From: Escherichia phage Ptacy1532
Sequence record: PQ863255.1
Length of the DNA stretch: 64,000 bases
Reading direction: 5' to 3' (one strand)
Position numbers and translations under genes: made by a program. Below the pieces are notes generated by a model. It worked only from the letters and a program-made list of their open reading frames with translations, did no database searches and was not told where the DNA came from. Each line of letters starts with the position of its first letter. Positions within the stretch are counted from its first letter, which is position 1. Shown here piece after piece: positions 47,113 through 57,850 of the stretch.

Positions 47113-47224
47113 ATTTCCTCTCATTGAATTTAAAAAAGGACTCTCCGAAAAGAGCCAAGCTTTAAATCCAAAAAAGATATTACCCAATATCTGTGGATAA
47201 CCTGCTCTTAAAATATCTATCCGA

Positions 47225-47345
47225 CGGATGTTCGAGGATTGTTCCTCTCCCTAGCATCGGCCCCATACGGGAAATATATTAAGATTAGGTTAGTTGAGTC
47301 AGAATAACTCACATAGCCCTCCGAAGAAGGCTATAGGCGTTACTA
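47225..47345 (-). promoter_or_regulatory. conserved intergenic element, copy A (hairpin TATAGCC..GGGCTATGTGAG, then GCTAGGGAGAG and CTCGAACATCCG boxes)
   Basis: About 120 nt sharing ordered blocks with 54055-54178; starts right at the stop of the upstream gene. Confidence 0.35.
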
Positions 47346-47348
47346 CAA

Positions 47349-50030: not shown

Positions 50031-50510
50031 ATACCCTCCAATTAAAAAGAAGAAAACTATCAGGGGAGTACACTAGCTCTGGGCCACGCTGTAGACATCG
50101 GCCTACCTTCCACAGCTAATCAGCTAATGTACTCTCCTAATAGTTTATGAATAGGGGGAGGGGACGAATCCTCCCATATCCTATTAATTAATATTGCATG
50201 TAAGATCTAACAATCGGTTGCCTTTGTAGGAATAAGCGTTATGCTAATCCAGCACTAAACTCCCGCCCCCTTAGTGGGCTGGGTTATTAAAGGGTAACGC
50301 CCTTATGGGCTAGTTACGTGAATGTTAGTTTGATAGGAGATCTGAAGTCCTATCTCAAAGGACTCTCGTAAGAATCCTTCACGATATTACTTATTCAACT
50401 CTCGTCGGCTATCTCTCCAAGCCAACCAAGTGTAGATTTTCAACTCTTCAAAATCTTCTGGAGAGAATAGATATTCTTTGAAGGTGTCACCAAACCACTC
50501 TAAAAATTCT

Positions 50511-53440: not shown

Positions 53441-53470
53441 AAAACAACAAAGGCCGCCCGAAGGCAGCCT
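53441..53470 (-). terminator. Rho-independent terminator
   Basis: AGGCTGCC-TTCG-GGCGGCCT hairpin followed by TTGTTGTTTT on the minus strand, right after the stop of 53475..53726. Confidence 0.45.
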
Positions 53471-53474
53471 CTCT

Positions 53475-53726: not shown

Positions 53727-54054
53727 GAAGCCAGAAGCCTTCCAGTTTCAGAGCACCATTAGCTACTACATCCATACGTTCAGGGCGGTTCATACGTTTG
53801 GTTGATACTTTCATACATATCTCTCTTTGTTAGTGGAGGCATTATTGCCAGTTGATATAAGGGATAGCCCTAGTCAGGAGGCTAATTCTGACCGCGTACT
53901 CATTGCCGACCTTCTCTGCCTAAGAGTTCAGGTTCTAGAGCTATCTCTTATTCCAACTGGTGAAGACTCCCTACCCCTAGGAAGTCTCCTGAATCCCAAA
54001 CCAATACGTACCCCTACATATCGGAAAGTCTTTCGAAAATTAACAGGTTTTAGT

Positions 54055-54178
54055 CTAACACCGGATGTTCGAGCAAGCTCTCCCTAGCGGTGTGGCATAT
54101 GCCTGAATTAATAAGTTAATGAGGAACACCCTCACATAGCCCTCTGATAAACACAAGGGCTATAAGTCGATGTTACTT
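54055..54178 (-). promoter_or_regulatory. conserved intergenic element, copy B
   Basis: Same ordered blocks as copy A; stem TAGCCCT/AGGGCTA conserved while the loop differs. Confidence 0.35.
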
Positions 54179-56256: not shown

Positions 56257-56284
56257 ATAAAAAAGCCCCAGCCGTAGCCGGGGC
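56257..56284 (-). terminator. Rho-independent terminator (second of a tandem pair)
   Basis: GCCCCGGC-TACG-GCTGGGGC hairpin followed by TTTTTT on the minus strand. Confidence 0.4.
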
Positions 56285-56342: not shown

Positions 56343-56369
56343 AACGCAAAAAGCCGCCCAAAGGCGGCT
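56343..56369 (-). terminator. Rho-independent terminator (first of a tandem pair)
   Basis: AGCCGCC-TTTG-GGCGGCT hairpin followed by TTTTTGCG on the minus strand. Confidence 0.45.
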
Positions 56370-57811: not shown

Positions 57812-57850
57812 TGATAAAAGAAAAGGCGCTACCCGTTAAGGTAGCGCCTT
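57812..57850 (-). terminator. Rho-independent terminator
   Basis: 11-bp stem AAGGCGCTACC/GGTAGCGCCTT with 6-nt loop, followed by TTTTCTTTTAT on the minus strand. Confidence 0.55.

What the first reader, a model, noticed from the sequence alone, without database searches (positions are those of the whole stretch)
47225..47345. Two copies of a conserved ~120-nt intergenic element with a covarying hairpin
Regions 47225-47345 and 54055-54178 share, in the same order on the minus strand, AGTAAC, a hairpin (TATAGCC..GGGCTATGTGAG), GCTAGGGAGAG and CTCGAACATCCG. The stem sequence is conserved while the loops differ (TTCTTCGG versus TGTGTTTATCAG), which argues for selection on structure. Both copies begin right at the stop codon of the upstream gene and precede the next gene. 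The GCTAGGGAGAG box loosely resembles the initiating region of T7-type promoters.
Basis: seen in the sequence. Interest (0 to 1): 0.55.

Follow-up and report, generated by a model that had tools for sequence, protein, structure and literature searches.

The report
New structured RNA in phiEco32-like phages
The two intergenic stretches are real copies of a previously undescribed RNA fold, supported by strong covariation, that sits between genes inside the long early transcript of a phiEco32-like coliphage; it is not a promoter and most likely controls how that transcript is cut, ended or read through.

Summary
The window is a phiEco32-like Kuravirus. Copy A (47132-47344) and copy B (53957-54177), both on the minus strand, share a five-helix core of about 130 nt: P1, P2, an AU-rich linker, P3, and P4 closing an invariant 7x7 internal loop (CUAGGGN / NAACAUC) capped by P5. 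Each copy then has further hairpins. A ends in an intrinsic terminator.

A covariance model built only from A-type sequences finds B at E=3e-12. Across 35 distinct homologues, 99.3% of pair cells are paired and 14 of 25 pairs show compensatory changes. Slid controls give 33-49% paired.

The family occurs in Kuravirus, Suseptimavirus, Moazamivirus (phage 7-11) and one Zobellviridae-like contig. It is non-coding and strand-specific. It matches no Rfam family and is not annotated as an RNA in any record examined.

The reading as a T7-type promoter is rejected, as are phage-sigma (gp36) and sigma-70 promoter readings.

Function is inferred, not shown. My best guess (about 0.4) is an intercistronic processing, stability and termination module of the early operon, whose product may itself be a stable RNA. 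The main rival (about 0.2) is a put/EAR-like antiterminator RNA. The need for antitermination in these phages is an acknowledged open question.

Side finding: copy A carries an antisense match to the 5'UTR of host nrdD.

The parts
47132..47344 (-). Copy A, whole element (213 nt): 5' motif, P1-P5 core, long-range helix, P6 and intrinsic terminator. It lies between the phi32_91 and phi32_90 homologues.
47339..47344 (-). AGUAAC 5' boundary motif of A. In most family members this motif is the last sense codon NAG plus the UAA stop of the upstream ORF.
47313..47334 (-). P1 of A: AUAGCCUUC / GAGGGCUAU with a UUCG tetraloop.
47296..47310 (-). P2 of A: GAGU/ACUC. This helix covaries, being GAGG/CCUC in B and GAGC/GCUC in the SU7 type.
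47272..47295 (-). AU-rich linker of A (ACUAACCUAAUCUUAAUAUAUUU). Its UAACCU and UCUUAA segments can pair with AGGUUA and UUAAGA downstream of P4.
47262..47271 (-). P3 of A: CCC-GUAU-GGG. Relatives have GGC/GCC or GCC/GGC.
47221..47260 (-). P4-loop-P5 domain of A. P4 is CCGAUG/CGUCGG. The invariant 7x7 internal loop is CUAGGGA (47248-47254) / GAACAUC (47227-47233). P5 is GAGGA/UCCUC.
47164..47213 (-). A-specific 3' domain. It holds the 3' strand of the long-range helix, a perfect DnaA-box sequence TTATCCACA (47192-47200) and the P6 hairpin (47168-47196, GGGU loop). The segment is 82% identical, in antisense orientation, to the E. coli nrdD 5'UTR.
47132..47156 (-). Intrinsic terminator of A: GGCUCU-UUUCGG-AGAGUC followed by U6. 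The stem sequence is conserved as far as phage 7-11, and a G/A polymorphism keeps G.U or A-U pairing.
53957..54177 (-). Copy B, whole element (221 nt), between the phi32_113 and phi32_112 homologues.
54054..54177 (-). Core of B: P1 54136-54163, P2 54121-54133, P3 54094-54103, and the P4-loop-P5 domain 54058-54093.
54001..54024 (-). P6 of B: a 10-bp hairpin, CCGAUAUGUA-GGGG-UACGUAUUGG.
53962..53989 (-). Terminal hairpin of B: 12 bp with a GGGG loop inside a conserved UAGGGGUA, and no U-tract.
53830..53956 (-). Variable module downstream of B. It is predicted to form a long stem. Its apical part (53871-53937) is 79% identical to the leader between nutL and gene 24 in P22-like phages. Other Kuravirus and Suseptimavirus genomes carry unrelated hairpins here.
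50278..50391 (-). Possible third, degenerate copy C: AGUAAU, P1 with a UACG loop, P2, an ACUAAC linker and P3, but without the invariant internal loop.
   Evidence: 17.3 bits; E=0.05 window-wide, 4e-4 locally

Best explanation
SHOWN. Copies A and B are paralogues of a non-coding, structured RNA domain. It is read on the minus strand, the sense strand of the long early operon of a phiEco32-like Kuravirus, which host sigma-70 RNA polymerase transcribes. The shared core is 5'-(NAG-UAA-Y)-P1-P2-AU-rich linker-P3-P4[invariant 7x7 loop CUAGGGN/NAACAUC]P5. It is followed by a hairpin with a G-rich loop (P6) and a terminal hairpin. In A the terminal hairpin is a bona fide intrinsic terminator.

INFERRED (my commitment, about 0.4). 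The element is an intercistronic 'punctuation' module. It partitions the polycistronic early transcript at that point. It would do so by termination or attenuation (copy A) and by endonucleolytic processing in or next to the single-stranded AU-rich linker. The very stable P1/P2 hairpins would then sit at the 3' end of the upstream mRNA, and the P3-P5 domain would sit at the 5' end of the downstream RNA. The invariant internal loop would be the recognition site for the factor that acts on it, either a nuclease or an RNA-binding protein.

In role this resembles the family of related RNase III sites between the early genes of T7. The excised or terminated module may itself persist as a stable RNA. 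For copy A that RNA would carry an antisense segment to the leader of host nrdD.
For: The structure is real and strand-specific.
- Covariation: 99.3% of cells paired, and 14 of 25 pairs with changes on both sides (0 of 500 shuffles reach this). Slid controls give 33-49% paired (smaller set).
- An independent lineage, L132, has entirely different P1, P2 and P4 sequences that still pair, with the loop nucleotides unchanged.
- A non-canonical position next to P5 covaries A.G <-> C.A.
- G.U pairs, and better z-scores on the sense strand than on the antisense strand.

The element is not coding: there are at least 3 stops in all six frames and the indels are not multiples of 3.

It is under strong selection. 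A is about 70% identical in nucleotides between Kuravirus and phage 7-11, whereas the neighbouring protein phi32_92 is only 30-33% identical.

The context fits punctuation.
- All copies are intercistronic and sense, and start at the stop codon of the upstream ORF.
- There are two copies, and possibly a third, spaced 3-4 kb apart in one operon.
- No promoter motif of any known type lies in or before them.
- P1 carries UUCG or UACG loops of the kind discussed as phage mRNA stabilisers (PMC8948821).
- A ends in a terminator only 19 nt before the next start codon.
- A tRNA gene embedded in the same operon shows that this transcript is processed.
Against: There are no transcript-end data, so neither cleavage nor a stable product has been shown.

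The helices are too short for classical RNase III substrates.

A simple stabiliser would not need 22 invariant nucleotides and six or seven helices.

The possible third copy C and the CVT22 relative lack the invariant loop, so scaffold and loop may have separate roles.

Strong intrinsic terminators lie both upstream and downstream of the copies. The literature says an antitermination mechanism is needed (PMC8948821). Both points fit the rival explanation equally well.
Confidence: 0.4

Rival explanations
1. Cis-acting processive antiterminator RNA, working like HK022 put or Bacillus EAR. The nascent core would bind the transcribing host RNA polymerase and make it resistant to the terminator that follows (A's own terminator, or the one about 0.6 kb after B) and to later terminators.
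For: Early transcription in this phage group starts at sigma-70 promoters at the right end and runs as very long polycistronic RNAs. The authors state that an antitermination strategy 'remains to be defined' (PMC8948821).

In 7-11 no sigma-70 promoter is predicted between gene 151 and gene 99. Transcription must therefore pass A's terminator to express genes 111-100 (PMC4331800 Table 2).

Copy A sits immediately upstream of a strong terminator whose stem sequence is conserved, with only 19-38 nt to the next gene.

Like EAR, the element is intra-operonic and intergenic. No N or Q homologue was found next to it.
Against: Strong terminator-like hairpins (57850, 56369, 56284) lie between the best early promoters (about 59.7-60.5 kb) and copy B, so B cannot account for read-through there.

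There is no similarity to any Rfam family, EAR included.

The element is larger and more complex than put.

Two or three copies in series in one operon are not needed for a processive modification.

Nothing here tests binding to RNA polymerase.
Confidence: 0.22
2. Trans-acting small RNA. In the strict form of this idea, the main function is regulation of other RNAs or sequestering of a protein, with the core acting as a chaperone- or protein-binding scaffold. Copy A would be an antisense regulator of host nrdD mRNA, in the manner of FinP/FinO.
For: Copy A has a discrete intrinsic-terminator 3' end whose stem is conserved.

Its 3' domain is antisense to the conserved 18-mer CTGTGGATAACCTGTTCT in the enterobacterial nrdD 5'UTR (-20..-37). 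All A-type copies show 0-1 mismatch to it, apart from two Salmonella-phage-like variants, pSal-SNUABM-01 and metagenome L126, which differ further or by a 1-nt deletion. Kuravirus copies also match E. coli-specific flanks: 50 nt at 82% identity and 51 bits, which I calculate as E of about 5e-7 for a single genome. The predicted duplex is -70 kcal/mol, against -35 +/- 4 for shuffled sequences.

Phage 7-11, pSal-SNUABM-01 and SU7 encode ProQ/FinO-domain proteins in the same early region.
Against: Copy B and L132 lack both the nrdD segment and a strong terminator. B has no match in E. coli at all.

The nrdD-like nucleotides are also explained by intramolecular helices, or by DnaA binding at the DNA level.

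No promoter is present, so a 5' end would require processing.

No ProQ/FinO homologue was found in this window.
Confidence: 0.15
3. Ligand- or protein-sensing attenuator (riboswitch-like leader), or a new self-cleaving ribozyme, with the invariant internal loop as binding pocket or active site.
For: About 22 nucleotides are invariant in an internal loop, surrounded by helices whose sequence varies but which always pair. This holds across four phage lineages.

In copy A an aptamer-like domain is followed by a terminator and then by a gene.

Small ribozymes and orphan riboswitch candidates are common in phage intergenic regions (own knowledge).
Against: The downstream genes differ in every lineage: a small membrane protein, an endolysin, a 46-aa protein, and an unrelated ORF.

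No conserved alternative (antiterminator) pairing with the terminator stem was found.

There is no match to any known riboswitch or ribozyme model.

The CVT22 relative and copy C lack the loop.
Confidence: 0.1
4. DNA-level element: a replication origin, a single-strand initiation signal, or a DnaA-binding site.
For: A perfect DnaA box, TTATCCACA, is conserved in all A-type copies and overlaps a hairpin. The same box, with its flanks, occurs in the host nrdD leader.
Against: Copy B and L132 have no DnaA box.

There is only one box and no cluster of boxes.

Cumulative GC skew shows no feature at 47 or 54 kb.

G.U pairs, the A.G<->C.A covariation and the strand asymmetry of folding point to RNA.
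Confidence: 0.04
5. Promoter: a T7-type initiating region, a phage-sigma (gp36) promoter or a sigma-70 promoter.
For: GCTAGGGAGAG resembles CTATAGGGAGA of T7 promoters (sequence only).
Against: Transcription in this phage group is described as carried out by host RNA polymerase with sigma-70 and then with the phage sigma factor gp36. The cited papers do not mention a phage-encoded RNA polymerase (PMC8948821).

The gp36 motif tAATGTAtA is absent from both regions.

No sigma-70 consensus precedes either copy.

The box is one strand of a covarying RNA internal loop.
Confidence: 0.02

Closest known systems
T7 early-region RNase III processing sites (R0.3, R0.5, R1, R1.1, R1.3)
   Same: Both are families of related, structured, intercistronic RNA elements. 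Both lie in the early operon of a virulent podovirus that host RNA polymerase transcribes. Both have conserved internal-loop nucleotides, and both leave hairpins at mRNA ends. (The T7 details are from my own knowledge.)
   Different: T7 sites are single irregular hairpins of about 20 bp that RNase III cleaves. Here there is a multi-helix domain whose helices (3-13 bp) are too short for a classical RNase III substrate. Cleavage has not been demonstrated, and there is no sequence similarity.
HK022 putL/putR antiterminator RNAs
   Same: Both are paralogous structured RNA elements within one phage genome. Both are transcribed in the sense direction within early transcripts and lie upstream of intrinsic terminators. 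In both cases the phage lacks an N-like protein.
   Different: put RNAs are about 70 nt with two stem-loops, lie close to the promoter, and each serves its own operon. The present element is 130-220 nt with 5-7 helices, lies kilobases from the promoters, and its copies are in series in one operon. Binding to RNA polymerase is untested.
EAR (eps-associated RNA) of Bacillales
   Same: Both are intergenic, intra-operonic structured RNAs of about 120 nt that would allow read-through of distal terminators.
   Different: EAR is in Rfam and does not match. It is bacterial and associated with polysaccharide operons, and it has a different fold.
Lambda/P22 nut sites (boxA + boxB)
   Same: Both have a short linear motif followed by a hairpin, occur as two copies per genome, and lie in early transcripts. 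In addition, the module next to B is homologous to the nutL-gene 24 leader of P22-like phages.
   Different: There is no boxA. The P1 loop is variable, whereas the boxB loop is the conserved feature. No N-like protein was detected. The P22-like piece lies downstream of nutL and is not nutL itself.
FinP/FinO-type antisense RNAs and 3'UTR-derived, ProQ/Hfq-associated sRNAs
   Same: Copy A ends in an intrinsic terminator, is cut from or ends an mRNA, and contains a long antisense match to an mRNA 5'UTR (host nrdD). Related phages encode ProQ/FinO-domain proteins.
   Different: The conserved core is far more elaborate than these sRNAs. Copy B has neither a terminator nor a detectable target. No expression data exist.

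Membership tests
Any described RNA family (Rfam 15, 4227 models) | Score at or above the family's gathering threshold, or at least a significant E-value, against a covariance model | tested here: not met
   Over the whole window at gathering thresholds, only a tRNA is found. Permissive E-value scans of both regions give only chance-level hits for A (best E=0.36) and none for B.
T7-type single-subunit RNA polymerase promoter | A conserved promoter of about 23 bp (TAATACGACTCACTATAGGGAGA-like), repeated before gene blocks | tested here: not met
   Only a 10-nt partial resemblance exists, lacking the TATA. The box occurs twice in 64 kb and is one strand of a covarying RNA internal loop.
T7-type single-subunit RNA polymerase promoter | The phage encodes a single-subunit RNA polymerase | not tested
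   I did not screen the window ORFs for such a polymerase. The literature describes phiEco32-like phages as using host RNA polymerase with sigma-70 and then with the phage sigma factor gp36 (PMC8948821).
phiEco32 gp36-dependent middle/late promoter | The single element tAATGTAtA, 6-8 bp upstream of the start site | tested here: not met
   No match with one mismatch or fewer lies within 47113-47348 or 53814-54177. The known promoters precede genes 6, 13, 26, 40, 58 and 68 (PMC4331800).
Sigma-70 promoter | -35 and -10 hexamers at 16-18 bp spacing upstream of the element | tested here: not met
   There is no site before either copy. One weak 9/12 match lies inside A. Sequence conservation begins abruptly at AGUAAC, and the upstream sequences are unrelated.
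RNase III processing site (T7 R-site type) | An irregular dsRNA hairpin of about two helical turns (about 20 bp) | tested here: not met
   P1 has 9-13 bp. P4 has 6-7 bp and P5 4-5 bp, separated by a 7x7 loop. Only the variable module downstream of B is predicted to form a stem of about 21 bp.
RNase III processing site (T7 R-site type) | Cleavage by RNase III | not testable with these tools
   This needs an in vitro cleavage assay or comparison of rnc mutant and wild-type transcript ends.
Lambda-type nut site | A boxA consensus plus a boxB hairpin with a conserved loop, together with an N-family protein | tested here: not met
   There is no CGCUCUU(U)A. P1 loops differ freely (UUCG, 12-nt loops and others). 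Neighbouring proteins have no N/Q-type Pfam or PHROG assignment.
HK022 put / EAR-type processive antiterminator RNA | The nascent RNA makes RNA polymerase terminator-resistant in cis | not testable with these tools
   Only context is available: the element lies upstream of terminators inside a long operon, and the literature states a need for antitermination.
Intrinsic (Rho-independent) terminator (3' end of copy A) | A GC-containing hairpin directly followed by a U-tract | tested here: met
   GGCUCU-UUUCGG-AGAGUC plus CUUUUUU at 47132-47156. The same feature is annotated as a terminator in 7-11 and SU7. Copy B has no U-tract.
Terminator-ended / 3'UTR-derived sRNA | A discrete stable transcript, with target complementarity | tested here: inconclusive
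   Target complementarity is found for A only, to the nrdD leader. Existence of the transcript cannot be tested here.
DnaA-box cluster / replication origin | Several DnaA boxes with an AT-rich unwinding element, and a skew inflection | tested here: not met
   Copy A has a single perfect box and B has none. GC skew shows no feature there.
Riboswitch | A conserved aptamer consistently upstream of one functional class of genes, with an alternative-pairing expression platform | tested here: not met
   The downstream genes are unrelated across lineages. No conserved antiterminator pairing was identified.
Protein-coding sequence | An open frame preserved across homologues | tested here: not met
   There are at least 3 stops in each of the six frames in both copies. 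Indels of 1, 2, 4 and 7 nt separate homologues.

The most novel reading that the evidence does not exclude
The core is an RNA that acts directly on host RNA polymerase. That would make it a third, structurally unrelated class of processive antiterminator RNA, after HK022 put and Bacillus EAR. It would explain how the sigma-70-driven early transcripts of phiEco32- and 7-11-like phages run through their many intrinsic terminators, a mechanism the literature explicitly calls undefined.
Probability: 0.2. Interest if true: 0.8.

Novelty: new variant of a known kind. Interest (0 to 1): 0.62.

Why it matters
phiEco32 and 7-11 are model systems for the takeover of host RNA polymerase by phage sigma factors and inhibitors. 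How their 25-30-kb early transcripts are punctuated, stabilised or carried through terminators is not known.

A covariation-supported RNA family placed exactly at intercistronic positions of that transcript gives a concrete, mutable handle on the question.

The family is not in Rfam and is not annotated as an RNA in any of the GenBank records examined. Some genomes label it 'hypothetical protein', so it also corrects annotation.

The antisense match of copy A to the conserved leader of host anaerobic ribonucleotide reductase (nrdD) would, if functional, be a rare case of a virulent phage RNA targeting a host mRNA.

Tried and rejected
Readings tested and rejected:
- T7-type promoter, gp36 promoter and sigma-70 promoter.
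- Protein-coding explanation.
- Known RNA families.
- Origin of replication: GC skew shows nothing and there is a single DnaA box.

Searches for more copies or relatives:
- Pattern scans of IMG/VR and metagenomes returned only the same phage clades plus chance hits in coding DNA.
- Aeromonas phage APT65, P22-like ST104 and the right end of 7-11 contain no copy.
- The search for related loci with the phi32_92 protein reached only close relatives.
- Copy B and its downstream module have no match in E. coli genomes.

Structure leads that stayed weak:
- A NrdR-box or IHF reading of the nrdD-like segment did not fit, judged by eye only.
- The long-range linker pairing is only weakly supported statistically in AU-rich sequence.
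- A 5' 'P0' helix could not be made consistent across lineages.

Literature:
- The svsR prophage sRNA paper (PMC12803456) proved unrelated.
- The two key phiEco32 papers (Savalia 2008, Pavlova 2012) are not held, so gene-by-gene temporal data around genes 90-91 and 112-113 could not be read.
- A Salmonella nrdD leader, needed to test host-specific complementarity of the 7-11 copy, could not be obtained. The one locus fetched is from another, unidentified enterobacterium.
Full report
IDENTITY OF THE WINDOW. The 44-57 kb part of the window is 97.6% identical to Escherichia phage vB_EcoP_WFI101126 and about 94% identical to phiEco32 (genus Kuravirus). All genes in this part lie on the minus strand. 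They are the small early genes phi32_86 to phi32_122 plus a tRNA-Arg gene. Copy A lies in the 236-nt spacer between the homologues of phi32_91 and phi32_90. Copy B lies in the 359-nt spacer between the homologues of phi32_113 and phi32_112.

CHECK OF THE OBSERVATION. The three exact 11-12-mers occur only in these two regions of the 64-kb window. Near-matches occur at the frequency seen in shuffled sequence. A covariance model built only from A-type homologues of other phages (alignment A4, model R1) finds copy B at 59.6 bits, E=3.1e-12, and nothing else of significance. A second model built from all family members, run without filters, scores A at 138 bits, B at 107 bits and the next hit at 18 bits. 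The repeat is therefore real and far beyond chance.

The description needs three corrections.
- The element is about 210-220 nt long, not 120.
- P1 does not covary between the two window copies.
- The 'boxes' GCTAGGGAGAG and CTCGAACATCCG are the two strands of an internal loop.

ANATOMY. On the sense (minus) strand the shared core has the following parts.
- A 5' motif AGUAAC. In most members this is the last codon NAG plus the UAA stop of the upstream ORF.
- P1, of 9-13 bp. Its base is AUAGCC/GGCUAU in enterobacterial phages. The distal part and loop are variable. The loop is UUCG in copy A.
- P2, a short hairpin: GAGU/ACUC in A, GAGG/CCUC in B, GAGC/GCUC in the SU7 type, and 6-10 bp in other members.
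- An AU-rich linker containing ACUAAC.
- P3, of 3 bp with a GUAU or AUAU loop.
- One unpaired nucleotide.
- P4, of 6-7 bp, closing a symmetric 7x7 internal loop, CUAGGG(A/C) opposite (G/A)AACAUC.
- P5, capping the loop: GAG./.CUC with a variable loop.

Minimum-free-energy folding of single sequences from four lineages recovers the core hairpins without any alignment (all five in window copy A and L132; P2 or P5 is missed in 7-11 and copy B). The sense strand folds better than the antisense strand: z = -1.9, -2.1, -2.3 and -3.9, against +0.2, -1.8, -0.2 and -2.7.

Downstream of P4 both copies have a hairpin, P6, closed by CCA/UGG with a GGGU or GGGG loop, followed by a terminal hairpin.
- In A the terminal hairpin is a canonical intrinsic terminator (GGCUCU...AGAGUC plus U6, 47132-47156). 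It is also annotated as a terminator in phages 7-11 and SU7.
- In B it is a 12-bp hairpin with a conserved UAGGGGUA apex and no U-tract.

In A the linker (UAACCU, UCUUAA) is complementary to AGGUUA and UUAAGA downstream of P4. B has an analogous AUUAAC/GUUAAU pair. Support for this long-range helix is only moderate, because the sequence is AU-rich.

COVARIATION. On 35 distinct sequences aligned to the model (A8), 99.3% of the 853 pair cells are standard pairs and 14 of 25 pairs show changes on both sides. No shuffle out of 500 reaches these values. Sliding the 3' partners by 1-3 columns drops pairing to 33-49% and the number of double-change pairs to 4 or fewer (a 17-sequence subset is). One caveat is that the alignment is fitted to the model. 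However, RNAalifold run on a plain MAFFT alignment finds P1, P3, P4 and P5 with 12 compensatory pairs.

The strongest single item is L132, a 48.7-kb phage contig mis-binned into a Flavobacterium MAG. Its P1, P2 and P4 are entirely different in sequence, yet fully paired, while the loop nucleotides are unchanged.

The position flanking P5 covaries A.G <-> C.A, with two A.A exceptions. From my own knowledge of RNA isostericity this is typical of a sheared non-canonical pair, and it points to a structured loop. B's P6 and terminal hairpin also show wobble-compatible and compensatory changes.

All six reading frames are closed and the indels are not multiples of three.

DISTRIBUTION AND SELECTION.
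- A-type copies occur in about 100 Kuravirus and Suseptimavirus genomes and in the Salmonella phages 7-11, SE131 and pSal-SNUABM-01 (Moazamivirus and relatives), at 69-75% nucleotide identity.
- B-type copies occur in Kuravirus and Suseptimavirus only. I found no B copy in the 28 kb of 7-11 scanned.
- The adjacent protein phi32_92 is only 30-33% identical between these groups. The non-coding element is therefore the best-conserved sequence in its neighbourhood.
- Pattern scans of IMG/VR, metagenomes and 185,579 genomes returned only these clades, mis-binned phage contigs, and L132.
- Citrobacter phage CVT22 (Zobellviridae), which also encodes a sigma factor and the amidoligase cluster, has a weak syntenic hit at 28 bits. 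It has the same helix order but a different, smaller internal loop.
- No Rfam family matches. No record examined annotates the element as RNA, and no paper in the searchable library describes it.

WHAT IT IS NOT. The T7-like resemblance is superficial. phiEco32-like phages use host RNA polymerase with sigma-70 early on, and with the phage sigma factor gp36 later. The gp36 motif tAATGTAtA precedes genes 6, 13, 26, 40, 58 and 68 (PMC8948821, PMC4331800). It is absent from both regions. No sigma-70 consensus precedes either copy, and conservation starts abruptly at AGUAAC. The helices are too short for classical RNase III sites. There is no boxA or boxB and no neighbouring N- or Q-like protein. 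GC skew and DnaA-box counts give no support for an origin.

CONTEXT BEARING ON MECHANISM. The best sigma-70-like promoters on the minus strand lie at 59.7-63.0 kb. Strong terminator-like hairpins on the same strand lie at 57850, 56369, 56284, 53472 and 47156. For 7-11, primer extension validated only two early promoters, at the right end. The authors infer very long polycistronic early RNAs and state that an antitermination strategy remains to be defined (PMC8948821). No sigma-70 promoter is predicted between genes 151 and 99 of 7-11, so transcription must pass A's terminator there.

The elements are thus sense-strand, intercistronic parts of one long transcript, which also carries a tRNA that has to be excised. 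With the broader model a marginal third copy appears at 50278-50391 (17.3 bits; E=0.05 window-wide, 4e-4 locally). It again begins at an AAG-UAA-U stop, with P1 (UACG loop), P2, an ACUAAC linker and P3, but it lacks the invariant loop. The 353-nt spacer around it is very structured, z=-5.4.

MOST LIKELY MECHANISM (inference). I commit, at about 0.4, to an intercistronic punctuation module. In this model two or three related structured elements partition the early polycistronic RNA. They do so by attenuation at A's terminator and by endonucleolytic processing near the exposed AU-rich linker. The UNCG-capped P1/P2 hairpins are left as a 3' protector of the upstream mRNA, and the P3-P5 domain is left at the 5' end of the downstream RNA. 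The invariant loop is the recognition site of the factor involved. The closest analogue in role is the family of related RNase III sites between the early genes of T7. Membership in that family fails on helix length and remains untested for cleavage. The released module may itself be a stable RNA.

RIVALS. A put/EAR-like processive antiterminator (about 0.22) fits the literature's open question and the juxtaposition with terminators. It is weakened by the strong terminators upstream of B and by the serial copies. A primarily trans-acting sRNA (about 0.15) is favoured by the features of copy A described below, but not by B. A riboswitch or ribozyme (about 0.1) is favoured by the invariant loop and disfavoured by the inconsistent downstream genes. 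DNA-level roles (about 0.04) and a promoter (about 0.02) are unlikely.

SIDE FINDING ON COPY A. The A-specific 3' domain (47164-47213) is 82% identical over 50 nt to the E. coli chromosome 14-63 nt upstream of the nrdD start codon. It lies in antisense orientation to nrdD. The blast score is 51 bits, which I calculate as E of about 5e-7 for one genome. The nrdD 5'UTR has two perfect DnaA boxes. The proximal box lies in an 18-mer, CTGTGGATAACCTGTTCT, that is identical in a second enterobacterium. Most A-type copies carry its reverse complement with 0-1 mismatch, and one metagenomic 7-11-like copy matches 18/18; pSal-SNUABM-01 and metagenome L126 differ further or by a 1-nt deletion. The Kuravirus copies also match E. 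coli-specific flanks. The predicted duplex energy is -70 kcal/mol, against -35 +/- 4 for shuffled leaders.

The same nucleotides form the long-range helix and the base of P6, so their conservation has an RNA-structural explanation as well. Whether the match means antisense control of nrdD, DnaA binding, or a captured host fragment is open. Phages 7-11 and pSal-SNUABM-01 encode proteins that pass Pfam's ProQ/FinO threshold, and SU7 encodes one just below it, three genes upstream of its A copy. None was found in this window.

VERDICT. This is a real, well-supported and previously undescribed structured RNA family in a model phage group. Function is unproven. The leading and rival hypotheses can be separated directly by transcript-end mapping and terminator read-through assays.

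Noticed in passing
window 47164-47213 (-); L131:1501-1550; L135:560-590: The 3' domain of copy A is antisense to the 5'UTR of host nrdD (anaerobic ribonucleotide reductase). It includes a perfect DnaA box and an 18-mer conserved among enterobacterial nrdD leaders. Kuravirus copies also match E. coli-specific flanks (50 nt, 82% identity).
   Followed up: partly
window 50278-50391 (-), within spacer 50040-50392: This is a marginal third, degenerate copy of the family. It has AGUAAU, P1 with a UACG loop, P2, an ACUAAC linker and P3, but lacks the invariant internal loop. It lies in a very structured 353-nt intergenic spacer (z=-5.4) that also holds a hairpin with a G-rich loop.
   Followed up: partly
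window 53830-53956 (-); L092:2501-2567: The module between copy B and the phi32_112 homologue is predicted to form a stem of about 21 bp. Its apex is 79% identical, with a 22-nt exact core, to the leader between nutL and antiterminator gene 24 of P22-like phages such as ST104. NJ01-type and SU7-type phages carry unrelated hairpins at this place. A 9-codon mini-ORF (MSTRSELAS) is not conserved.
   Followed up: partly
L091:3008-3712 (7-11 gp122); L094:2708-3436; L093:7083-7496 (SU7_91): Phages that carry copy A encode ProQ/FinO-domain RNA-binding proteins in the same early region. The Pfam ProQ scores are 36.8, 30.6 and 25.8 bits against a cut-off of 27. tblastn finds no homologue in this window.
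   Followed up: partly
window 57823-57850, 56352-56369, 56265-56284, 53449-53472 (-): Several strong intrinsic-terminator-like hairpins lie inside the early gene cluster, downstream of the best sigma-70-like promoters (59.7-63.0 kb). Read-through, or additional unrecognised promoters, must therefore exist.
   Followed up: no
L134:15084-15300 (-) (Citrobacter phage CVT22, between gp79 and gp78): A syntenic intergenic RNA has the same order of helices (P1, P2, linker, P3, P4/P5) but a small, different internal loop. It scores 28 bits with model R2. It is possibly a diverged branch of the family in Zobellviridae.
   Followed up: partly
L130:3135-3845 (-) (7-11, between gp135 and gp134): This unannotated 711-bp gap contains tRNA-like T-arm sequences (GGTTCGAATCC, GGTTCGACTCC). 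It may hold unannotated tRNAs or other RNAs. Phage 7-11 gp135 is the homologue of phi32_112, the gene that follows copy B.
   Followed up: no
L132 (JBOFGJ010000684.1) and L133 (CALKAR010000070.1): Two contigs assigned to bacterial MAGs (Flavobacterium sp. and Peptococcaceae) are phage DNA. One is CVT22-like and the other is a Kuravirus. L132 also encodes a series of small paralogous ORFs that all end in (E)EENE.
   Followed up: no
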